The notes beneath the pieces are model-generated. The model had not been told where the DNA came from. It saw only the letters and a list, made by a program, of their open reading frames with translations, and ran no database searches. The translations under genes were made by a program, and so were the position numbers. Source: a virus (lineage: Duplodnaviria; Caudoviricetes). From it: 53,394 nucleotides of DNA. Below, one piece after another: positions 6,185-53,394 of this stretch; the stretch's first letter is position 1; each line of letters starts with the position of its first letter. The stretch is taken from positions 1-53,394 of IMG/VR virus record IMGVR_UViG_3300027963_003320; one strand, written 5' to 3'.

Positions 6185-7453
6185 ATGAAACCAACATTAG
6201 TATTTCAGGCACCAATAGCAACAAGAAGTGGGTATGGTGACCACGCGAGAGATTTATTACATTCTCTTTATAAATTAGATAAATTTGAAATCAAAGTTAT
6301 CAGCACTCGTTGGGGCAATACTCCAATGGACTCACTTAATTATGACAATCCATTTCATAAGTGGATAGTTGATAGTATTATTCCAAAAGTAGAACAAAAG
6401 CCTGACATTTATATTCAGGTTACTGTACCAAATGAATTTCAAGCAGTAGGACATTATAACATTGGAATTACTGCAGCAATTGAAACAACACATTGTCCAT
6501 TAGATTGGGTACATGGTTGTAATAGAATGGATTTAATTATAGTACCATCTGAACATTCAAAAAAGAGTTTAGTGGATAGTGTTTATAATGAGGCCGACAA
6601 CAATACAAAACAATTAATAGCACAACATAGAATTCAAAAACCTGTTGAAATTCTCTTTGAAGGATTTGATGAAATGGATTTTGGAACCGATGATGTGGTG
6701 AATGTAACTGAATTAGATGCAATCAAAGAAGATTTCGCATTTCTATTTGTAGGACATTGGTTAAGAGGTGATTTGGGTGAAGATAGAAAGAATGTGGGAA
6801 TGATGATTAAATCGTTTGCAATGGCATTCAAAAACGAAAAGGTTAAACCAGCATTAGTTCTTAAAACCAGTTCAGCAGGATTTAGTGTTATTGATAGAGA
6901 AACTACTATTAAAAAAATAAAAGATGTATTAGGAAAAGATTATAAGTCAGTTCCAGTTTATCTTTTACATGGTGACTTAACTCCATCTGAAATGAATGGG
7001 TTGTATGAACACAAAAAGGTAAAAGCAATGTTAAACTTTACAAAAGGTGAAGGATTTGGTAGACCTCTTTTAGAATTTAGTTTGACAGGTAAGCCGGTTA
7101 TCGTAAGTAATTGGAGTGGACATATTGATTTCTTAAAACAAGGTGCAGTATTATTAGAAGGTGAATTGAAACCTGTACATGAATCAGCAGCCGACCAATT
7201 CCTTTTAAAAGAATCACAATGGTTTAATGTAAATATTTCAAAAGCATTAACTGCAATGAAAGATGTTTATAAGAATTATGAGAAATATAAAACTGAATCA
7301 TCTAAATTGGGAAAACATAATTTAGAAAAATTTAGTCTAACCAAAATGACAGAAGGATTTGATACTATTTTAAATCAGTATGGTATTTATAGTAAGATAC
7401 AACCAAAGTTTCAACAATTACAATTACCAAAATTGAAAATGTTAAATAAATAG
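6185..7453 (+). CDS. Glycosyltransferase, GT-B fold (GT4-like)
   Basis: SGYG N-terminus, DRKN and KGEGFGRPLLE motifs. Confidence 0.88.
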   Translation: MKPTLVFQAPIATRSGYGDHARDLLHSLYKLDKFEIKVISTRWGNTPMDSLNYDNPFHKWIVDSIIPKVEQKPDIYIQVTVPNEFQAVGHYNIGITAAIETTHCPLDWVHGCNRMDLIIVPSEHSKKSLVDSVYNEADNNTKQLIAQHRIQKPVEILFEGFDEMDFGTDDVVNVTELDAIKEDFAFLFVGHWLRGDLGEDRKNVGMMIKSFAMAFKNEKVKPALVLKTSSAGFSVIDRETTIKKIKDVLGKDYKSVPVYLLHGDLTPSEMNGLYEHKKVKAMLNFTKGEGFGRPLLEFSLTGKPVIVSNWSGHIDFLKQGAVLLEGELKPVHESAADQFLLKESQWFNVNISKALTAMKDVYKNYEKYKTESSKLGKHNLEKFSLTKMTEGFDTILNQYGIYSKIQPKFQQLQLPKLKMLNK

Positions 7454-41789: not shown

Positions 41790-41805
41790 CAATTTCTTAA
41801 TATAG

Positions 41806-41833
41806 AAACCCTCACTTTATGTGGGGGTTTTTT
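41806..41833 (+). terminator. Intrinsic terminator
   Basis: AAACCCTCAC-tttat-GTGGGGGTTT plus T tract; same CCCTCAC/GTGGGGG stem as at 27096. Confidence 0.87.
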
Positions 41834-47322: not shown

Positions 47323-47958
47323 ATGAAAAAAGTAATATTGTTGGTTACACTATTAGTTATTAGTGTTACATTATTCTCACAAGATGTATTAGTATTAAAA
47401 CATACAAATTACACATCGAATTTCAGCAAGTCAAAAAAATATCCAGTAATGGTAGAGTGGTGGGAAACTAAAGCAAAAGTTAGTTGTCCAAATCCATTAC
47501 CAAGAAGAGATGCATTTCAACCTGACCCACAAGCAATAGTAGAAACGGATATCAAAGCTGACTATGTAGGTAGTGGTTATGATAGAGGGCATATGTCTCC
47601 TGCAGCATCCAACCAATGTCAAACTGCAGATGTTCAAATTGAATCGTTCTATATGAGTAATATGTCAGCACAAACACATAGACTAAATGCAGGTGATTGG
47701 AAGTCATTAGAAGTTTTGACAAGAGAATGGGCAAGTAAATATGATTCAGTTCACATATGGGCAGGTAATGTAGGTGAGATTAAAAGAATAGGTAGAGTTA
47801 CAGTTCCAAAACAATGTTGGAAAGTAGTATACATTAAAAAAACAAAAGAGTGGATGTTTTTTTTATTTGAAAACGACCAATCAAATCCAGACGGAATAAA
47901 TAACAATAAAGTTTTAAGACAAGATATAGAAAAATTAACAAGATTAAAATTTAAGTAG
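47323..47958 (+). CDS. Secreted DNA/RNA non-specific endonuclease (NucA/EndoG family)
   Basis: Signal peptide; YDRGHM.P, F.MSNM..Q...LN...W..LE and VP...WKV. Confidence 0.93.
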   Translation: MKKVILLVTLLVISVTLFSQDVLVLKHTNYTSNFSKSKKYPVMVEWWETKAKVSCPNPLPRRDAFQPDPQAIVETDIKADYVGSGYDRGHMSPAASNQCQTADVQIESFYMSNMSAQTHRLNAGDWKSLEVLTREWASKYDSVHIWAGNVGEIKRIGRVTVPKQCWKVVYIKKTKEWMFFLFENDQSNPDGINNNKVLRQDIEKLTRLKFK

Positions 47959-48484: not shown

Positions 48485-50161
48485 ATGCAAATTGATTTTA
48501 ATTGGGTAAAGGTAGATAATATAAATAAATTTATTTATTTTAATTATTTTATATTTTCATCCGGCAATATGTTTTTTGAAAAATATGCATTTGATTTTGT
48601 TATTGAATTGGTAAATAGTAAAAAATATACCGATTATAAAATAATAATAGACCAGTTATCCGAACCAATTTGTAATGCAGGTAAACAGAGTTCAACAAAT
48701 GGATACCTAAACAATTATAAACTAATTGCTCCACATTTAAAAAATAAAGAAGTATATTTTATTTCTGATAATTCAAGTAAACAATTTAAAGAATGGATTA
48801 AAGAAGAATTTGGATGGAAACATATAACATACCACTTTCATTTTAATAATATAGTTACGGCAGCATTTACAAAATTGCCAATAAAAATAAAATCGGATTC
48901 GTATAAAAAGAAAATTATTATTATAAATGGAAATATGGATAATGACCACAAACCATTAGCTAAAAAAATGATGACTGATTTAAACCTATGGGATATATCA
49001 TATTGGTCATTCGCTGATAATACTAATTTTGGAATGGAAATATATCAACATTCAAAAAATTTATTTGTAATTTTTCAAAAATTAATTCCCCTATTTGAAA
49101 ATTCATTTTTATATGTAGTGACAGAAACATCATCTGATAACACTTACACCGATACAAATATTAGAGTAGATTTTATGTCAAAAATGGGTAGAGCATTGAT
49201 ATTACCTATGCCATTTGTAGTAATTGGAAATATGGGTGTATTAAAACATTTAAAAGAATTGGGATTCAAAACATTTTCAAATTGGTTTGATGAATCATAT
49301 GATGATATTGAAAATTTGGAAGAAAGAATGGTAGTAATAAAAAATTTAATTAAATCATTAAAAGATATAACATCCGAAAACCAATTAAAAATGAGAAATG
49401 AAATGTTAGACATTTTTACGCATAATAGGAAAGTTTTAAAAGAAATGATGTATTTTGAAGAAAAAAATATAAATTTGGAAATACCAAATTTTTTAACTAA
49501 ATTTGGTTATGAACCAATTAACTATGAAATAATGGAAGAATATAATATAAATAAATTTACAATTTTTTATCATAAAAATTTAGATGGTGGTGGGACTACA
49601 TTTGGAATAAATGCATTAAATTCATCAAATGTAAAAAAACAAATAAAATCCGGAAATATTTTAGAAATATGTTCGGGTCCTGGTTTTATGGGATTTTGGA
49701 CATATTATCACGAATATGCTAAAAAATTATTTTTATTAGATATTAATTCTGAAAATGAAGAGTATATAAATAAAACAATAGATTATAATACAATTGGTAA
49801 TAATACAAAGTTTAAACAATCCAATGTATTTGATAGTTTTACAGATAATATAATTTTTGATACAATAATAAGTAATCCACCACATTTTAAAACAAAAAGA
49901 CCTGGAGGATATAGAAATGAAAATGAAAAATTAATATCATTAGATGAAAATATGGAATTTCATATAAAATTTTTTAAAGATGTTAAACGATTTATGGATA
50001 AAAATAGTCGTATTATATTGGTTGAAAATTGTGATGGAGTAACTGAAGAAGATATACGAGAAATGACAAAAAACGATTTTAGAGTAGAATTAGTTGAATA
50101 TAATAAATATGGTTGGCAAGGAGAATCTACTTTTTATACAATTATTTTATACTTATTGTAA
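48485..50161 (+). CDS. Two-domain protein: GT-like N-terminus plus class I SAM methyltransferase
   Basis: VVTET...PFVVIG...L..LKELGFKTF..WFDESYD; LEICSGPGFMG, LLDIN and ISNPPHF. Confidence 0.75.
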   Translation: MQIDFNWVKVDNINKFIYFNYFIFSSGNMFFEKYAFDFVIELVNSKKYTDYKIIIDQLSEPICNAGKQSSTNGYLNNYKLIAPHLKNKEVYFISDNSSKQFKEWIKEEFGWKHITYHFHFNNIVTAAFTKLPIKIKSDSYKKKIIIINGNMDNDHKPLAKKMMTDLNLWDISYWSFADNTNFGMEIYQHSKNLFVIFQKLIPLFENSFLYVVTETSSDNTYTDTNIRVDFMSKMGRALILPMPFVVIGNMGVLKHLKELGFKTFSNWFDESYDDIENLEERMVVIKNLIKSLKDITSENQLKMRNEMLDIFTHNRKVLKEMMYFEEKNINLEIPNFLTKFGYEPINYEIMEEYNINKFTIFYHKNLDGGGTTFGINALNSSNVKKQIKSGNILEICSGPGFMGFWTYYHEYAKKLFLLDINSENEEYINKTIDYNTIGNNTKFKQSNVFDSFTDNIIFDTIISNPPHFKTKRPGGYRNENEKLISLDENMEFHIKFFKDVKRFMDKNSRIILVENCDGVTEEDIREMTKNDFRVELVEYNKYGWQGESTFYTIILYLL

Positions 50162-50182
50162 ATAACTTAAAATTAAATTATT

Positions 50183-50341
50183 ATGTGGAAAATTTGCTTA
50201 TCAGGAACAGACATTGCAATTGAAGGATGTGAGTCTATGACCGAAGAACAAGTAACTATTTGGTTTTTAGAAAATCAAGTAACATTAGATGAAGCAAATG
50301 AATATGGTGATACCACTAAATTCATTTGCTTAAATGTTTAA
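50183..50341 (+). CDS. Small acidic protein (52 aa) missing from the ORF track
   Basis: MWKICLSGTDIAIEGCESMTEEQ...FICLNV*; TAATG coupling to the next gene. Confidence 0.6.
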   Translation: MWKICLSGTDIAIEGCESMTEEQVTIWFLENQVTLDEANEYGDTTKFICLNV

Positions 50342-51054
50342 TGGTGGATTATAAAGGTTACGAATTTTATTTATTTGGATGTTCACATTCATCCAATCTA
50401 CATCACGAAACATTTCCTTATTTTGATAAAGCGGTTACATTGTGTTATGGTGGAAATTCTAATGATAGAATTTTACGTGAACTAAAAGATACAATATTAC
50501 ATTTAACAAATAATTTAACACAAAAAGTAGATAATATATATTTTAATATACAATTTACTTATTTTAATAGATTTGAAATATATTCGGATGTAGATAAAAA
50601 ATATATTCCATTTCACTCTCCAAACATAGCAAAACAACATTTTACAGAAAATCATCCATTATCAAAAGAATATAACGAATTTTATAAAAATTGGTTAACT
50701 TATATTTTTGATGAAGAAACTAGATTAAAAGAATTACTAATAGAATGTAAAATTCTTAAAAATTTAATGGATTCATTTGGTATAAAATATAGTTGGTGTT
50801 TGTGGGCAGGAATACATGGTGTTGAAATTGTAAATAGTGAAAAGCAAATAATTCAACAAAATATTATATTTACAAATGAATTTGAAGAACTTGGATTTGA
50901 AAAATTTGATGAATTTTGGTATTTTGAAGATTACGCAAAATTTAATAAAATGAGAAATTGTGATATAGCGGATAATATAGATGAACATTTACATACTGAA
51001 GCAAATTATGTTTTAGCAGAAATCGTCAAATTAAAATTCATACAAAAAACTTAA
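50341..51054 (+). CDS. SGNH-like protein (paralog 7)
   Basis: LFGCSHS, GNSN, IQFTY..R and DEHL; ATG 50341 by TAATG overlap. Confidence 0.62.
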   Translation: MVDYKGYEFYLFGCSHSSNLHHETFPYFDKAVTLCYGGNSNDRILRELKDTILHLTNNLTQKVDNIYFNIQFTYFNRFEIYSDVDKKYIPFHSPNIAKQHFTENHPLSKEYNEFYKNWLTYIFDEETRLKELLIECKILKNLMDSFGIKYSWCLWAGIHGVEIVNSEKQIIQQNIIFTNEFEELGFEKFDEFWYFEDYAKFNKMRNCDIADNIDEHLHTEANYVLAEIVKLKFIQKT

Positions 51055-51091
51055 TACATAACTCATTGATTTCCAATAACTTACAAGTTTA

Positions 51092-51123
51092 TTTGGTAAT
51101 TCAGGATATTTATCGTATATTTG
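51092..51123 (+). promoter_or_regulatory. -33/-7 promoter (copy 6), for tmRNA
   Basis: TTTG-N20-TATATTTG, an exact match to the Bacteroidota TTTG / TAnnTTTG consensus. Confidence 0.85.
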
Positions 51124-51135
51124 ATATAACAAATT

Positions 51136-51501
51136 GGGGATGCTATGGAATTGATTGCAATGTAAATGGTAGTATCACACGTGGACAAAGCATGAATGTC
51201 CTTAAATACTTGCAAAACAACAAAAGACGAAAAGTCAACAATGACTTACAATGACCTTATGGCATTCGTAGGTATGGATTACGCTGTAGCAGCATAACCA
51301 ATCCCGTACACATCATGGGACTTTAAATAGAATGTGAAATGAGTTTACTGAAACCTAAAATCAGTTGGTGGCCAGTTGTATTACCATACAGCCCTTATTA
51401 TTTTGGAAAGTTTGTAAGATTAAACTTTATCCTAAACGTGTGAAATGCTGATATTATTAGTTCTTTGTAAGACAGGGGTTCGATTCCCCTCATCTCCACC
51501 A
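51136..51501 (+). ncRNA. ssrA: tmRNA
   Basis: Acceptor GGGGATG/CATCTCC with G3.U70, T arm AGGGG-TTCGATT-CCCCT, ACCA end; internal tag frame ending YAVAA* at 51297. Confidence 0.95.
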
Positions 51502-51511
51502 AAAAAACATA

Positions 51512-51542
51512 TTTGGTAATTTGAAAAAGTTATCGTATATTT
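51512..51542 (+). promoter_or_regulatory. -33/-7 promoter (copy 7), for tRNA-fMet
   Basis: TTTGGTAA at 51512 and TCGTATATTT at 51533. Confidence 0.8.
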
Positions 51543-51552
51543 AATTTAATAT

Positions 51553-51624
51553 CGCGGGATAGAGCAGAGGTAGCTCACGTGGCTCATAACCACAAGGTCG
51601 GAGGTTCGAATCCTTCTCCCGCAA
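51553..51624 (+). tRNA. tRNA-Met(CAT), initiator type
   Basis: Cloverleaf with C1:A72 mismatch, CTCATAA loop and GTTCGAATC T loop; CCA not encoded. Confidence 0.92.
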
Positions 51625-51628
51625 CAAA

Positions 51629-51697
51629 TAAGATGATTGGTTGAAGCCAATAGTAATAAAACCGACTATGTGTTAAAGCCGGACATCAATTATCTTA
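51629..51697 (+). ncRNA. Candidate small structured RNA
   Basis: TAAGATGATTG (51629-39) pairs with CAATTATCTTA (51687-97), enclosing short hairpins. Confidence 0.35.
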
Positions 51698-51714
51698 AAA
51701 AAGTTTTAAATAAA

Positions 51715-51745
51715 TTTGGTAGAATAAAAAATTATTCGTATATTT
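51715..51745 (+). promoter_or_regulatory. -33/-7 promoter (copy 8), for the large ncRNA
   Basis: TTTGGTA at 51715 and TCGTATATTT at 51736. Confidence 0.8.
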
Positions 51746-51749
51746 ATTA

Positions 51750-52655
51750 AAACCGAAAGGAAGTTCTTTAAAAGATTAAAATATTTACGAAGTGGGTTTC
51801 GACTCACATAGTAAACAACGGCCGCTTATGGTCGTCAAATAAACTACGAAAGTAGGATAAAGTGGGTGTATTTAAGTGATACATCTGCGGTTACTCTCCC
51901 CGTAAGGAGAGACTAACTTAAGTAAGCAAGTGGGATATTGTTTGAGCTTTGTACGAAAGGGTAACACTATATCGGAAGAGTTTGGATAATTGGGGTAGTA
52001 TAGATACTCCAATTGAGGTGGGAACACCAATAAGAATAACCCATAGAATATCTTGTAAGAAGTGTAGACTTAATCCCTCTACATCATTGCGGTATTCAGT
52101 TTGATAGTTATCTTAACATTAAGCCATCCGAAAGGACGCAAGATAAGATAGTGTACAAGTGGTGTTGTTACCATCCTTATATAGAGTTTGCCAAAACCTA
52201 TATTTGAAGATGACTTAAAAAACCGCAGTAGGGATATTGCATCGAGTAGTTTAGTATTCTCTTGACCAAAAGTTGAGGGAGCTAGTGGTAAACCGCTACT
52301 TGAATCATTCTATAAACTAAAACTCAATTTGAATAGTAATTCAAACTACAATTTAAAATTAAGCTTAAGTGTTTACCAGTTGCAGATGAAAGGTGTGTAC
52401 ATAGTTAAGAGATGTTCTTAGCCACGATACCTCCGCAAGAGGTCTGTGATTCTATCGAAAGGTTTCTAATTCCGCAAGAATTAATTAGGTCGCGAGGCTT
52501 GAAGAAAATAAGTAAGTAGAGAGTAATCGGCAACTTATAGACTGATAGTCTTAAATCATCCACATTGAATTGGTACTACTCAAAAGGTAGTGGAAACGGG
52601 AGGAACTAATAATCTTTCTAAAGCTGGTTCACCAAATAGAGTATTCTCATCTATT
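51750..52655 (+). ncRNA. Large structured ncRNA, GOLLD-like; ends approximate
   Basis: About 900 nt with no ORF of 60 aa or more, own promoter, many GNRA/UUCG-type hairpins, flanked by tRNAs. Confidence 0.7.
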
Positions 52656-52660
52656 TATAA

Positions 52661-52730
52661 GCGGTGTTAGTGTAACAGTAGCACATCGGACATTCCAGTT
52701 CGAAGGAGGGGGGCAGCACCTTTTACCGCT
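52661..52730 (+). tRNA. Non-canonical tRNA-Gly(TCC)-like RNA
   Basis: GCGGTG/TACCGC acceptor, U discriminator, intact D and anticodon stems; D loop lacks GG, T loop lacks TTC, anticodon loop is 8 nt. Confidence 0.6.
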
Positions 52731-52817
52731 CAACAGTAATTTAATGAGGCTAGTATTAACCGGAGCATGACTTGACGTGGCGTATTTTGAAATTGAATTA
52801 CTTTTTATAGAGAAAAA

Positions 52818-52886
52818 ATGAAGAACTTAACATTACATACAGCAGATTGTCTAACCATTAGAATTTGGGGTGGCAATAGTATGTAA
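52818..52886 (+). CDS. Putative attenuator leader peptide (22 aa)
   Basis: MKNLTLHTADCLTIRIWGGNSM* after an A-rich start; the stop overlaps the antiterminator strand. Confidence 0.65.
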   Translation: MKNLTLHTADCLTIRIWGGNSM

Positions 52887-52931
52887 AGTTAGGAAAGTTT
52901 ATTCAAATAATTTATGGAAACCCTGACTTTA
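52884..52931 (+). promoter_or_regulatory. Antiterminator helix
   Basis: TAAAGTTAGG (52884-93) pairs with CCTGACTTTA (52922-31): 10 bp with one G.U, sequestering the terminator 5' arm. Confidence 0.65.
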
Positions 52932-52954
52932 ATTAGTTGGGGTTTTTTGTTTTT
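52918..52954 (+). terminator. Intrinsic terminator directly before the tRNA array
   Basis: AAACCCTGACT-ttaatt-AGTTGGGGTTT then TTTGTTTTT. Confidence 0.85.
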
Positions 52955-53027
52955 GGAGTATAGCTCAATTGGTTAGAGCACCATCCTGATACGGTGGTTG
53001 TTGAAAGTTCGAGTCTTTCTATTCCAA
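52954..53027 (+). tRNA. tRNA-Ile(GAT)
   Basis: Cloverleaf; anticodon 52988-90. Confidence 0.92.
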
Positions 53028-53033
53028 CACATA

Positions 53034-53104
53034 TCCGGTTTAGTGCAATGGCAGCATGTAGGTCTCCAAAACCTTTGATTACAGTTCGAGTCTGTAAACC
53101 GGTG
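53034..53104 (+). tRNA. tRNA-Trp(CCA)
   Basis: Cloverleaf; anticodon 53066-68; G73; U1:U72 mismatch. Confidence 0.9.
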
Positions 53105-53109
53105 CAAAT

Positions 53110-53182
53110 AGTTTCATAGTGAAATGGATTATCACATAACACTACGAATGTTAGAGTGTAGGTTCGAGTCCTACTGAAACTA
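53110..53182 (+). tRNA. tRNA-Arg(ACG)
   Basis: Cloverleaf; anticodon 53144-46. Confidence 0.92.
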
Positions 53183-53188
53183 CAATAA

Positions 53189-53259
53189 GGTGAGTTGTCC
53201 GAGTGGCTAGGTGAAGGTCTGCAAAACCTTTTACATTGGTTCGATTCCAATACACACCT
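53189..53259 (+). tRNA. tRNA-Cys(GCA)
   Basis: Cloverleaf; anticodon 53221-23; U73; one A:A mismatch in the acceptor stem. Confidence 0.9.
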
Positions 53260-53266
53260 CTTATAT

Positions 53267-53338
53267 GTTGAGCGTAGCCTAATGGTAGGGCAAAAGTTTG
53301 TGGCACTTTGTGTGTGAGTTCGATTCTCATCGTTCAAC
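53267..53338 (+). tRNA. tRNA-His(GTG)
   Basis: Encoded G-1:C73 pair; anticodon 53300-02. Confidence 0.92.
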
Positions 53339-53344
53339 CAAAAT

Positions 53345-53394
53345 ACCCGTATGGCGGAATTGGTATACGCAGTGGTCTTAGAAGCCATACAATT
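53345..53394 (+). tRNA. tRNA-Leu(TAG), truncated by the window end
   Basis: GGCGGAATTGGTATACGC D arm and GTGGT-CTTAGAA-GCCAT anticodon arm. Confidence 0.85.

What the first reader, a model, noticed from the sequence alone, without database searches (positions are those of the whole stretch)
52818..53394. Leader-peptide attenuator gating a phage tRNA array: candidate sensor of tRNA depletion
Seen: a strong intrinsic terminator (52918-52954) abuts the first tRNA, leaving no room for a promoter between them. Upstream is a 22-codon ORF whose stop codon begins a 10-nt strand (TAAAGTTAGG) complementary to the terminator 5' arm (CCTGACTTTA), so the two helices are mutually exclusive. The leader contains CAT, TGT, CTA, ATT twice and TGG, read by five of the six visible tRNAs (His-GTG, Cys-GCA, Leu-TAG, Ile-GAT, Trp-CCA). 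Arg is AGA, which Arg-ACG does not read. Established: in trp/his-type attenuators a ribosome reaching the leader stop masks the antiterminator, while a stalled ribosome frees it. Inference: stalling at about Trp17 (15 nt before the helix) or earlier would permit read-through. Unlike amino-acid operon leaders, it has no run of one codon but samples many, so it could turn on replacement tRNAs when any of several host tRNAs is cleaved or uncharged. I know of no described phage tRNA array controlled this way. Caveat: 22 codons will match several anticodons by chance.
Basis: partly seen in the sequence, partly recalled or inferred. Interest (0 to 1): 0.92.

Follow-up and report, generated by a model that had tools for sequence, protein, structure and literature searches.

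The report
Leader-peptide attenuator before phage tRNA array
A tiny translated gene with switchable RNA hairpins sits directly in front of a phage's block of tRNA genes and is conserved in dozens of related lake phages, so the phage probably turns its tRNA genes on when translation slows.

Summary
By itself the window's 10-bp complementarity is only marginal: it appears in 5% of shuffles. Relatives make the case. I found them through features other than the ORF and the terminator. Of 59 distinct, uncut loci, 58 carry a small ORF plus a hairpin and U-run. This lies 5-16 nt before the first tRNA in 53 of 55 loci measured. The frame is open in 47 of 47 unique sequences, with 0 stops in 1614 codons against 182 and 131 in the other two frames. 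ORF lengths run from 22 to 53 codons, and pN/pS is 0.45-0.70. Four segments form three mutually exclusive helices, 1:2, 2:3 and 3:4, and they change together across lineages. Segment 2 lies at the stop codon or 12-14 nt before it. This is the anatomy of a trp/his-type ribosome-mediated attenuator, here gating a phage tRNA array downstream of tmRNA, tRNA-Met and GOLLD RNA. The idea that it senses depleted tRNAs is untested. The match between leader codons and the array's anticodons is at chance once a full array is counted. I rate it a new variant of a known kind. Confidence is about 0.65 and interest about 0.8.

The parts
52818..52886 (+). Leader ORF: 22 codons plus TAA, MKNLTLHTADCLTIRIWGGNSM
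   Evidence: Homologous ORFs of 22-53 codons occur in relatives. Frame 0 has 0 stops in 1614 codons, against 182 and 131 in the other frames. The 20 nt upstream are 12% GC with no SD, and A is at -3 in 26 of 35.
52826..52840 (+). Segment 1 (CTTAAC-A-TTACATAC), covering codons 3-8. It pairs with segment 2.
   Evidence: Fold. In relatives, cognate 1:2 energy is -9.5 against -7.0 for swapped partners, and 0 of 5000 permutations reach the observed value.
52879..52893 (+). Segment 2 (GTATGTAA-A-GTTAGG). Bases 52884-52893, TAAAGTTAGG, form the antiterminator strand and begin with the stop codon.
   Evidence: The homologous strand in relatives co-varies with the terminator 5' arm.
52921..52931 (+). 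Segment 3: the terminator 5' arm (CCCTGACT) plus three loop bases that extend the antiterminator helix
52935..52953 (+). Segment 4 (AGTTGGGG) and the T-run TTTTTTGTTTT. Together they form the 3' arm and U-tract of the intrinsic terminator.
   Evidence: A terminator of the same style stands at 41804-41832 in the window.
52954..53394 (+). tRNA array: Ile-gat, Trp-cca, Arg-acg, Cys-gca, His-gtg and a cut sixth tRNA. It continues beyond the record.
   Evidence: Relatives carry 13-24 tRNAs.
52735..52802 (+). Conserved hairpin motif directly upstream of the leader. The outer stem is AGTAATTTAAT/ATTGAATTACT and the core is AACCGGAGCATGACTTG. Its role is unknown.
   Evidence: No Rfam match at E <= 1.
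51715..52653 (+). Upstream transcription unit that probably feeds the attenuator. It comprises a sigmaA-like promoter (TTTGGTA-N17-CGTATATTT, 51715-51745) and GOLLD RNA (Rfam match 52242-52653).
   Evidence: No such promoter lies between GOLLD and the array. Metatranscriptome contigs bridge 52652-52794.
52660..52731 (+). Degenerate tRNA-like element between GOLLD and the hairpin motif
   Evidence: Read. The homologue in L014 (7837-7907) scores 41.4 bits as tRNA. Neither nor calls it in the window.

Best explanation
This is a ribosome-mediated (leader-peptide) transcription attenuator that decides whether RNA polymerase continues into the phage tRNA array. Polymerase arrives from upstream, in this window probably from the GOLLD promoter.

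The nascent RNA can form three helices that exclude one another.
- Helix 1:2 closes the leader ORF.
- Helix 2:3 is the antiterminator.
- Helix 3:4 plus the U-tract is the terminator.

A ribosome that translates the leader to its end covers segment 2. In the 22-24-codon forms it sits on the strand. In the longer forms it sits directly against its 3' end. Segment 3 then pairs with segment 4 and transcription stops 0-15 nt before the first tRNA.

If the ribosome is slowed or stalled earlier in the ORF, segment 1 is masked or separated from segment 2. Segment 2 captures segment 3 as it emerges, the terminator cannot form, and the array is transcribed. In the longer forms the same may happen when no ribosome loads at all.

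The output is therefore high when translation of the leader is slow. This would make the phage's tRNA supply self-correcting.

Shown here: the anatomy, its conservation, the co-variation of the helices, the maintained reading frame, and the absence of room for a promoter.

Inferred: that ribosome position selects the fold, and that tRNA shortage is the natural trigger.
For: 1. Relatives were found through tRNA-Ile or the upstream hairpin motif. Neither query involves the ORF or the terminator. Of 62 distinct motif-bearing cores, 58 have ORF plus terminator, 3 are cut by the contig end, and 1 lacks the ORF. L014 has the module without the motif.
2. The ORF is translated. 47 of 47 unique ORFs are open, with 0 stops in 1614 codons against 182 and 131 in 1567 codons of the other frames. 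Twelve length classes (22-53 aa) share the same N-terminus, and most forms of 29 aa or more share the C-terminal frame, so indels are multiples of three. The LEDTDVG tail differs only at synonymous third positions in L012, L013 and L015.
3. pN/pS is 0.45-0.70. Frame matters more than peptide sequence, as expected of a leader.
4. The helices co-vary. Examples are CTCTAAC:GTTAGAG:CCTCTGAC:GTTAGGGG (L013), CCTTGAC:GTCAGGG:CCCTGAC:GTCGGGG (L019) and CTCTTAACTT:AAGTTAAGGG:CCCTTAACT (L022). Cognate against swapped partners over 26 classes gives 2:3 at -13.0 vs -9.8, 1:2 at -9.5 vs -7.0 and 3:4 at -13.1 vs -10.9 kcal/mol. In each case 0 of 5000 permutations reach the observed value.
5. On a model-fitted alignment of 38 rows, the antiterminator has 93.8% of cells paired and 5 of 9 pairs changed on both sides. 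The co-variation score is 0.219 against 0.123 +/- 0.011 (0 of 500 shuffles), and slid controls give 0.004-0.109.
6. The geometry is constant. Segment 2 ends 12-14 nt before the stop in all 29-53-codon forms, even where the tails differ, and it overlaps the stop in the 22-24-codon forms. The stop lies 23-35 nt before segment 3, so a ribosome cannot reach the terminator itself.
7. Folds of 11 representatives all give 1:2 plus terminator. With segment 4 blocked, 2:3 forms in 10 of 11. In the ribosome-mask folding, segment 3 pairs upstream with P of about 0.9-1.0 for A-site positions up to about 13 nt before segment 2, and 0.2-0.5 for the last ten or so codons and the stop.
8. The terminator arm ends 5-16 nt from the first tRNA in 53 of 55 loci. 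No copy of the phage's promoter motif lies between GOLLD and the array. The first tRNAs can therefore be made only by read-through.
9. In 4 of 4 metatranscriptome runs laid, contigs run from the leader across the terminator into tRNA-Ile at depth 3-21. The protein-coding flank has depth 0-4.
10. Passages of PMC9723704 report clues of leader-peptide attenuation upstream of amino-acid operons in a Flavobacterium.
Against: - In the window alone the 2:3 complementarity is not significant (5-8% of shuffles; z about -1.4 for the arm only).
- At equilibrium the terminator wins in the full-length RNA whatever the ribosome position. The switch must therefore be kinetic, which I could not test.
- With segment 4 blocked, the window's own RNA keeps 1:2 rather than forming 2:3.
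- In the longer forms a terminating ribosome would abut segment 2 rather than cover it. Also, 2:3 beats 1:2 without any ribosome. The logic may therefore differ between forms.
- The leader has no run of regulatory codons, and the codon-to-tRNA match is at chance for a full array.
- One relative, L066, has lost the ORF but keeps a hairpin and T-run before its tRNAs.
- The terminator helix shows little two-sided change: 1 of 9 pairs, co-variation 0.133 against 0.122, with 19 of 500 shuffles as high.
- The co-variation alignment was fitted to the tested structure. The sequences are related, so shuffles and permutations overstate significance.
- The transcription start is unknown. DNA carry-over in the RNA libraries cannot be excluded. 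No ribosome footprints are available.
- Some peptide positions in the long forms are invariant despite synonymous change (G-K-V-D-Y). This hints at a role for the peptide itself.
Confidence: 0.65

Rival explanations
1. This is an ordinary small protein gene with its own intrinsic terminator. The tRNA array is expressed by constitutive leak-through or by later processing. The extra complementarities serve mRNA stability or self-limiting translation of the small gene, because helix 1:2 occludes codons 3-6. They do not control read-through.
For: The long forms keep some residues despite synonymous change (G-K-V-D-Y, E, W, G, P). 23 protein clusters of 50-82 aa were found, unnamed or called hypothetical protein. 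At equilibrium the terminator dominates. The metatranscriptome contig covering the leader is listed at a higher depth than the contig crossing the terminator in 2 of 4 runs (179 vs 4 and 315 vs 3). These are different contigs, possibly from different strains, and the tool warns that contig depth cannot rank parts of a stretch.
Against: pN/pS is 0.45-0.70, which is high for a functional protein. The peptide shrinks from 53 to 22 aa by internal deletions while segments 1-4 and the position of the stop relative to segment 2 are kept. Segment 2 co-varies with the terminator arm, which a stand-alone gene does not need. There is no Pfam or PHROG family. There is no room for a promoter before the tRNAs.
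Confidence: 0.15
2. Read-through is decided by a factor, not by the ribosome. The conserved hairpin motif just upstream (52735-52802) would be a nut- or put-like site that makes polymerase resistant to the terminator once a phage or host factor is present. This would give temporal control. The leader ORF would be secondary.
For: The motif has 87 distinct instances with a co-varying outer stem. In other phage contigs it sits right after a sigmaA-like promoter and a boxA-like GTTCTTTAACA, ahead of tRNA-Met or of ORFs. A boxA-like GTTCTTTAAAA follows the GOLLD promoter in the window.
Against: L014 has the ORF and attenuator without the motif. The motif does not explain the maintained frame, the co-variation of 1:2 and 2:3, or the fixed stop-to-segment-2 spacing. 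The boxA-like match is not above chance in the window: 9 matches against 7.2 expected at one mismatch or fewer. The nut-like role is an analogy recalled from lambda and rrn leaders and was not tested. The two mechanisms could coexist.
Confidence: 0.12
3. This is a variant of the main model in which the nascent peptide is an arrest peptide of the TnaC, SecM or SpeFL type. It would stall the ribosome in response to a small molecule or to the state of the tunnel or release factor, rather than to tRNA supply.
For: Trp is present in 41 of 41 peptides. The W-x-G spacing is kept, and Met lies five codons after Trp in most forms. Several residues are kept through synonymous change.
Against: The Trp codon pairs with the CC of an upstream Pro or Thr codon in a conserved hairpin, so RNA structure can explain its conservation. 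Overall pN/pS is high. There is no sequence similarity to any known arrest peptide (searches found no family).
Confidence: 0.08

Closest known systems
trp/his/pheA/thr-type leader-peptide attenuators of amino-acid operons (recalled; clues in Flavobacterium psychrophilum are mentioned in passages of PMC9723704)
   Same: A short translated ORF, four segments forming 1:2, 2:3 and 3:4, and an intrinsic terminator with a U-tract. The stop codon is placed so that a finishing ribosome blocks the antiterminator. In the 22-codon form, the absence of translation is also predicted to give termination.
   Different: It gates tRNA genes rather than protein-coding genes. It is carried by a phage. It has no run of codons for one amino acid. 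ORF length varies from 22 to 53 codons. In the longer forms segment 2 lies inside the ORF, 12-14 nt before the stop.
pheST operon attenuator with the pheM leader (recalled from memory, not from a call)
   Same: A leader-peptide attenuator that controls a component of the translation machinery according to tRNA charging.
   Different: pheM has a run of Phe codons and controls a synthetase. Here the array covers about 20 amino acids and no single codon is enriched.
T-box riboswitches (recalled)
   Same: Both choose between an antiterminator and a terminator in response to tRNA status, so the proposed purpose is analogous.
   Different: The T-box binds uncharged tRNA directly and needs no ORF. 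The Rfam search found no T-box match at E <= 1, and here an ORF is strictly kept.
pyrBI leader, sensing of transcription-translation coupling (recalled)
   Same: The leader peptide has no amino-acid-specific codon run, and the signal is the relative position of ribosome and polymerase.
   Different: In pyrBI the ribosome translates into the terminator and blocks it directly, so close coupling gives read-through. Here the stop lies 23-35 nt before segment 3, so the opposite logic is expected.
GOLLD/tRNA islands of phages (passages of bioRxiv 10.1101/2024.12.08.627333)
   Same: GOLLD lies downstream of tRNA-Met and next to a tRNA island, as described for the family.
   Different: In the passages I read and in my literature searches, I found no description of a leader ORF and attenuator between GOLLD and the array.

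Membership tests
Ribosome-mediated (leader-peptide) transcription attenuator | A short ORF upstream of the regulated genes that is maintained as coding | tested here: met
   47 of 47 unique ORFs are open. Frame 0 has 0 stops in 1614 codons, against 182 and 131 in the other frames. Indels are multiples of three.
Ribosome-mediated (leader-peptide) transcription attenuator | An intrinsic terminator (GC-rich hairpin plus U-tract) between the leader and the regulated genes | tested here: met
   (stem energies -12 to -19 kcal/mol, T-runs). Present in 58 of 59 uncut distinct loci together with the ORF.
Ribosome-mediated (leader-peptide) transcription attenuator | An antiterminator helix that uses the terminator 5' arm and so excludes the terminator | tested here: met
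   -13.0 vs -9.8 kcal/mol; 5 of 9 pairs changed on both sides, 0 of 500 shuffles. In the window alone it is marginal.
Ribosome-mediated (leader-peptide) transcription attenuator | An anti-antiterminator (1:2) that sequesters segment 2 when the leader is not translated | tested here: met
   It forms in 11 of 11 representative folds. Cognate energy is -9.5 against -7.0 swapped. In the long forms it is weaker than 2:3.
Ribosome-mediated (leader-peptide) transcription attenuator | A stop codon placed so that a finishing ribosome masks segment 2 | tested here: inconclusive
   Met in the 22-24-codon forms, where the stop lies inside segment 2. In the 29-53-codon forms segment 2 ends 12-14 nt before the stop, at the trailing edge of a footprint. 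The steric effect cannot be computed.
Ribosome-mediated (leader-peptide) transcription attenuator | A run of regulatory codons for the sensed amino acid | tested here: not met
   No codon run is present. The codon-to-tRNA match is at chance for a full array. This feature defines the amino-acid-specific subclass, not the mechanism.
Ribosome-mediated (leader-peptide) transcription attenuator | Read-through responds to ribosome position in vivo or in vitro | not testable with these tools
   This needs reporters, Term-seq or Ribo-seq. Contigs crossing the terminator in 4 of 4 RNA runs are only a weak hint.
T-box riboswitch | Stem I with specifier loop and a conserved T-box sequence in the antiterminator | tested here: not met
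   No Rfam match at E <= 1 over 50000-53394 apart from GOLLD, tmRNA, tRNAs and three weak chance hits.
GOLLD RNA (context, not the finding) | A match to the conserved 3' domain model RF02032 | tested here: met
   277.7 bits against a gathering score of 150, E = 1.8e-79, at 52242-52653. Also present in L012-L015.
nut/put-like processive antitermination site (upstream hairpin motif) | An RNA element that renders polymerase terminator-resistant, often with boxA | not tested
   Context only: the motif follows a promoter and a boxA-like sequence in other contigs.

The most novel reading that the evidence does not exclude
Freshwater Bacteroidetes-type large phages carry a translation-speed sensor. 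It is a leader peptide whose decoding rate sets read-through into an array of about 20 tRNA genes. Any shortage of usable tRNA would then switch on the phage's replacement set. Possible causes are host shut-off, codon mismatch, and tRNA-cleaving defence nucleases. The sensor is wired into one island with a phage tmRNA, tRNA-Met and the GOLLD nanocage RNA. That would be the first known feedback control of viral tRNA supply, and the first leader-peptide attenuator controlling non-coding genes.
Probability: 0.35. Interest if true: 0.9.

Novelty: new variant of a known kind. Interest (0 to 1): 0.8.

Why it matters
Why phages carry tRNA genes, and when they use them, has been debated for decades. 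Codon compensation and escape from tRNA-targeting defences are the current ideas; I saw only the listings and abstracts of PMC10264068 and PMC11555353. A conserved switch placed exactly at the entrance of the array gives that question a handle. If slow translation opens the switch, the array is a regulated rescue system and not a constitutive supplement.

The finding would also extend leader-peptide attenuation to non-coding genes, to phages, and to a phylum whose translation initiation is unusual. It ties the enigmatic GOLLD RNA, a phage tmRNA and the tRNAs into one transcriptional layout that can be dissected. The module is short, common in lake metagenomes and metatranscriptomes, and easy to test with reporters.

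Tried and rejected
- **Protein neighbours as anchors for relatives.** The 242-aa ORF gave no relative. The 558-aa methyltransferase-domain protein gave 10 loci at 33-53% identity with no tRNA, GOLLD or tmRNA, so there was no synteny to use.
- **BLAST against named phage records.** It matched only tRNA-Met-like stretches and one partial GOLLD-region hit in an uncultured 635-kb phage. No record covered the leader.
- **Column-based consensus folding.** RNAalifold on the MAFFT alignment of 50 attenuators (A2) recovered only 7 terminator pairs. Indels inside the helices shift the register, so I used per-sequence duplexes and a covariance-model alignment instead.
It contained three off-target rows. 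It also aligned the 22-codon forms inconsistently, some on TTTGGGG (the Ile-Trp-Gly codons) and some on AAGTTAGG. I do not rely on its higher scores and report the cleaner A5.
- **TTTGGGG as the antiterminator in the 22-codon forms.** It is weaker (about -8.6 kcal/mol) and is not kept within that group; examples are TTTGGTA and TTGGGAT. I rejected it in favour of the stop-overlapping strand, which L014 supports by a matched insertion (GTTAAGG/CCTTAAC).
- **Rare-codon enrichment in the leader.** None: the CAI-like value is 0.63 against 0.71 +/- 0.13.
- **A promoter between the ORF stop and the tRNA.** I saw none by eye, and none of the five copies of the phage's promoter motif lies there. The sigma-70 scan is not informative for this host type.
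- **pyrBI-like direct blocking of the terminator.** Rejected, because the stop lies 23-35 nt before segment 3.
- **Arbitrium-like signalling peptide or RiPP precursor.** Considered because of the conserved C-terminal hexapeptide. Rejected by eye: there is no hydrophobic signal sequence and the tail is lost in the short forms. I ran no signal-peptide predictor.
- **Metatranscriptome depth.** Depth drops from GOLLD (10^3-10^4) to the leader (7-315) to the tRNAs (0-27). These are per-contig figures and tRNAs are poorly captured, so I draw no conclusion on termination efficiency.
- **Supplementary files of papers.** They were closed. Supplements of the GOLLD and Flavobacterium transcriptome papers might list this region or similar leaders.
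- **Literature.** None of the listed titles or abstracts describes one. Subscription journals are not covered.
Full report
**Context.** The window is a whole viral metagenome record of 53,394 bases, estimated 23% complete. Its last 2.3 kb is a block of non-coding RNA genes.
- A tmRNA lies at 51136-51501 (Rfam 79.2 bits).
- tRNA-Met lies at 51553-51625.
- The conserved 3' domain of GOLLD RNA lies at 52242-52653 (277.7 bits, E = 1.8e-79).
- After a 300-nt gap come tRNA-Ile, Trp, Arg, Cys and His, plus a tRNA cut by the record end.

A promoter-like motif, TTTGGTA-N17-CGTATATTT, occurs five times in the window against none expected. Three copies stand before tmRNA, tRNA-Met and GOLLD, and none stands between GOLLD and the tRNA array. 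Its -7 part fits the TAnnTTTG box of flavobacterial sigmaA, as given in passages of PMC9723704.

**The observation.**
- The 22-codon ORF runs 52818-52886.
- The hairpin is at 52916-52947, followed by TTTTTTGTTTT.
- tRNA-Ile starts at 52954.
- TAAAGTTAGG (52884-52893, opening with the stop codon) pairs with CCTGACTTTA (52922-52931) over 10 bp.

The antiterminator strand is itself paired with codons 3-8 of the ORF (52826-52840) in a long hairpin that encloses the ORF (z = -4.2). The region therefore has the full four-segment layout of a classical attenuator.

Taken alone, the window does not prove this. A 10-bp complement appears in 5.2% of dinucleotide shuffles, and an equally good duplex in 7.8%.

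**Relatives.** Protein neighbours gave no syntenic relatives, and named phage records gave none either.
- A scan with the 3' part of tRNA-Ile found four viral contigs with the same order of tmRNA, tRNA-Met, GOLLD, gap and tRNA array.
- In all four, a small ORF and a hairpin with a T-run stand directly before the first tRNA. That tRNA is Asn in three of them and Ile in L014.
- A conserved hairpin motif just upstream of the ORF (window 52735-52802) then served as a neutral query, giving 31 viral loci.

Neither query contains the ORF or the terminator, so their presence in the hits is a fair test. The count for the 62 distinct cores of this motif subtype is as follows.
- 58 have both the ORF and the terminator. 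In three of these my automatic boundary failed, because ARAGORN did not call the first tRNA-Asn.
- 3 are cut by the contig end. Two of them hold a complete ORF; in the third the ORF runs off the end.
- 1 (L066) lacks the ORF and keeps only a weaker hairpin and T-run before tRNA-His.

**The ORF is translated, but its peptide is weakly constrained.** Among 47 unique coding sequences the frame from the conserved ATG has no stop in 1614 codons. The other two frames have 182 and 131 stops in 1567 codons each, and neither is open in any sequence.

Lengths fall into twelve classes from 22 to 53 codons. The peptides share the N-terminus M-K/R-x-L-x-x-H-T, and most forms of 29 or more codons share the tail K/Q-L-E-D-T-D-V-G in frame. 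Insertions and deletions are therefore multiples of three. In L012, L013 and L015 that tail differs only at synonymous third positions.

The 20 nt before the ATG are 12% GC with no Shine-Dalgarno sequence, and A is at -3 in 26 of 35. From memory, that is the kind of start region Bacteroidetes use.

Within length classes pN/pS is 0.45-0.70. This is high for a working protein and is what one expects if the act of translation matters more than the product. No Pfam or PHROG family matches. The 23 related protein clusters found are unnamed or called hypothetical. Some residues are nevertheless fixed: Trp in 41 of 41 peptides and His in 40 of 41, and G-K-V-D-Y in the long forms with synonymous variation. 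The His and Trp codons lie in RNA stems, so RNA structure may explain them.

**The helices change together.** Per-sequence duplex searches locate segments 1-4 in every lineage.

| Locus | Segment 1 | Segment 2 | Segment 3 | Segment 4 |
|---|---|---|---|---|
| window | CTTAAC | GTTAGG | CCTGAC | GTTGGGG |
| L013 | CTCTAAC | GTTAGAG | CCTCTGAC | GTTAGGGG |
| L019 | CCTTGAC | GTCAGGG | CCCTGAC | GTCGGGG |
| L022 | CTCTTAACTT | AAGTTAAGGG | CCCTTAACT | AGTTAAGGGG |
| L027 | CTTGAATT | AATTCAGG | CCCTGA | |
| L014 | CTTTAAC | GTTAAGG | CCTTAAC | |

I swapped partners among 26 distinct classes. In each row, 0 of 5000 permutations reached the cognate value.

| Helix | Cognate (kcal/mol) | Swapped (kcal/mol) |
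|---|---|---|
| 2:3 | -13.0 | -9.8 |
| 1:2 | -9.5 | -7.0 |
| 3:4 | -13.1 | -10.9 |

Against dinucleotide shuffles of each locus's own upstream region, the 2:3 duplex has z between -2.4 and -4.4 in 14 of 17 representatives. The three 22-codon representatives, the window among them, reach only about -1.3 to -1.5 when the terminator loop bases are left out.

A covariance model of the antiterminator was built from 28 in-register sequences and used to align 38 mid-length, long and L014 forms.
- 93.8% of cells are paired.
- 5 of 9 pairs change on both sides (UA/UG/CG, GC/AU, AU/GC).
- The co-variation score is 0.219 against 0.123 +/- 0.011 in shuffles (0 of 500 as high).
- Slid registers give 0.004-0.109.

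That alignment is fitted to the structure and the sequences are related, so these figures are upper bounds. On the same alignment the terminator helix is 91.4% paired but shows only one two-sided change. Its score of 0.133 against 0.122 is barely above shuffles, with 19 of 500 as high. Its G-rich 3' arm absorbs changes in segment 3 through G.U pairs.

**Geometry and folding.** In every form of 29-53 codons, segment 2 ends 12-14 nt before the stop codon, even where the tail peptide differs (LEDTDVG, LEEASGW, LRDINKG, SGCKCM, GDIKG). In the 22- and 24-codon forms the stop lies inside segment 2. The stop is always 23-35 nt before segment 3.
- A ribosome can therefore never reach the terminator itself. 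This rules out pyrBI-type direct blocking.
- A ribosome finishing the leader would sit on segment 2 or directly against it.

Folds of 11 representatives all give 1:2 plus terminator. With segment 4 blocked, 2:3 forms in 10 of 11, the window being the exception.

I then masked a 28-nt footprint at each codon.
- In RNA that ends just after segment 3, that segment pairs upstream with probability about 0.9-1.0 while the A site is anywhere from the start to about 13 nt before segment 2.
- The probability falls to 0.2-0.5 over the last ten or so codons and at the stop.
- In full-length RNA at equilibrium the terminator wins, so the choice must be kinetic, as in known attenuators.
- Without any ribosome the window's RNA holds segment 2 in 1:2 (0.48). 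In L013 and L058, 2:3 forms anyway (1.0 and 0.9). The short and long forms may therefore differ in what happens when the leader is not translated at all.

**No other route to the tRNAs.** The terminator's 3' arm ends 5-16 nt from the first tRNA in 53 of 55 loci, which leaves no room for a promoter.

Metatranscriptome contigs from four lake runs cover the island.
- GOLLD is at depth 10^3-10^4 and tmRNA at 10^2-10^3.
- The leader region is at 7-315 and the first tRNAs at 0-27.
- In 4 of 4 runs a contig runs from the leader across the terminator into tRNA-Ile, at depth 3-21. Examples are 52765-53043 and 52774-53009 with no mismatch.
- The protein-coding flank at 51000-51079 is at 0-4.
- Contigs also bridge the GOLLD 3' end to the hairpin motif (52652-52794).

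This fits a single unit with partial read-through. However, contig depths cannot rank parts of a gene, tRNAs are poorly captured, and DNA carry-over is possible.

**What is sensed.** For the six visible anticodons, 7 of 22 leader codons match against a 12.1% background (P = 0.012). That count is post hoc and includes two ATG codons. With a full 22-anticodon array as in L015, 19 of 22 match against 80.7% (P = 0.36). Codon adaptation is ordinary.

The sequence therefore gives no evidence for any particular codon as the sensor. What the anatomy does predict is a response to the overall pace of leader translation. tRNA shortage is one natural cause of slowing. Ribosome shortage and a peptide-mediated arrest are others.

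**The upstream motif.** The hairpin at 52735-52802 has 87 distinct instances with a co-varying outer stem and a nearly fixed core. It has no Rfam match. In other phage contigs it follows a sigmaA-like promoter and a boxA-like GTTCTTTAACA, and it precedes tRNA-Met or ORFs. It could be a leader or an antitermination element. L014 shows that the attenuator can exist without it. I did not resolve its role.

**Comparison and novelty.** The mechanism belongs to the known class of leader-peptide attenuators. The features I could test are met, except for a run of regulatory codons (see the membership table). What is new is the target (a tRNA array, that is, non-coding genes), the carrier (a phage), the lack of amino-acid specificity, and the elastic ORF length.

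Five literature searches listed no paper describing such control. The GOLLD cryo-EM preprint mentions only that GOLLD lies near tRNA islands and downstream of tRNA-Met (passages).

**Verdict.** The attenuator reading is well supported by comparative evidence, with confidence about 0.65. The tRNA-depletion trigger is plausible but untested, at about 0.35. I rate it a new variant of a known kind, with interest 0.8.

Noticed in passing
window 52735-52802; also L044, L047, L049, L052, L086, L090, L102, L159, L160 and others: A conserved structured hairpin with a variable, co-varying outer stem and the core AACCRGAGCATGACTTG..GG.G. There are 87 distinct instances and no Rfam match. In other phage contigs it follows a sigmaA-like promoter and a boxA-like GTTCTTTAACA, and it precedes tRNA-Met or ORFs. 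It may be a new leader or antitermination RNA motif.
   Followed up: partly
window 51136-51501: A phage-encoded tmRNA (Rfam 79.2 bits) that ARAGORN missed in the window. In relatives ARAGORN reads the tag DEKSTMTYNDLMAFVGMDYAVAA, and the same peptide is encoded at 51196-51297 here.
   Followed up: partly
window 51752-52653: GOLLD RNA (3' domain at 277.7 bits) with its own promoter at 51715-51745. It is by far the most abundant RNA of the island in four lake metatranscriptomes, at contig depth 10^3-10^4.
   Followed up: partly
window 52660-52731; L014 7837-7907; L013 about 7290-7385: A degenerate tRNA-like element directly after GOLLD. It scores as tRNA at 41.4 bits in L014 and carries a long insertion in L013. 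It may be a processing site that releases the GOLLD 3' end.
   Followed up: no
window 23935, 27125, 51092, 51512, 51715 (+ strand): Five copies of TTTGGTA-N17-CGTATATTT against none expected by chance. Three stand before tmRNA, tRNA-Met and GOLLD. The motif looks like a strong Bacteroidetes-type promoter class of this phage.
   Followed up: partly
window 51763-51773: A boxA-like GTTCTTTAAAA lies just after the GOLLD promoter. A similar element follows promoters in other motif-bearing contigs. In the window alone it is not above chance.
   Followed up: partly
L020, L021, L024 and other 22-codon relatives, about 16 nt before the ATG: These relatives have TTG-N19-TATATTTA ending 6 nt before the leader ATG. 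If it is a promoter, the leader mRNA would be almost leaderless. The window lacks this box.
   Followed up: no
L066 (motif, then hairpin, then tRNA-His): A deletion variant that has lost the leader ORF but keeps a weaker hairpin and T-run before its tRNAs. It is a natural test case for unregulated termination.
   Followed up: no
L017, L018, L094, just after the terminator: The first tRNA (Asn, anticodon gtt) has an aberrant or interrupted 3' half, and ARAGORN does not call it.
   Followed up: no
window 47323-47958 and 48485-50161: Two ORFs have Pfam matches: a DNA/RNA non-specific endonuclease (E = 3.4e-32) and a 558-aa protein with a small methyltransferase domain. Relatives of the latter lie in contigs without the RNA island.
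   Followed up: no
window 51339-52604 (table 5): RNA contigs skip 78-154 nt inside tmRNA and GOLLD. They probably come from related phages with shorter variable domains, not from splicing.
   Followed up: no
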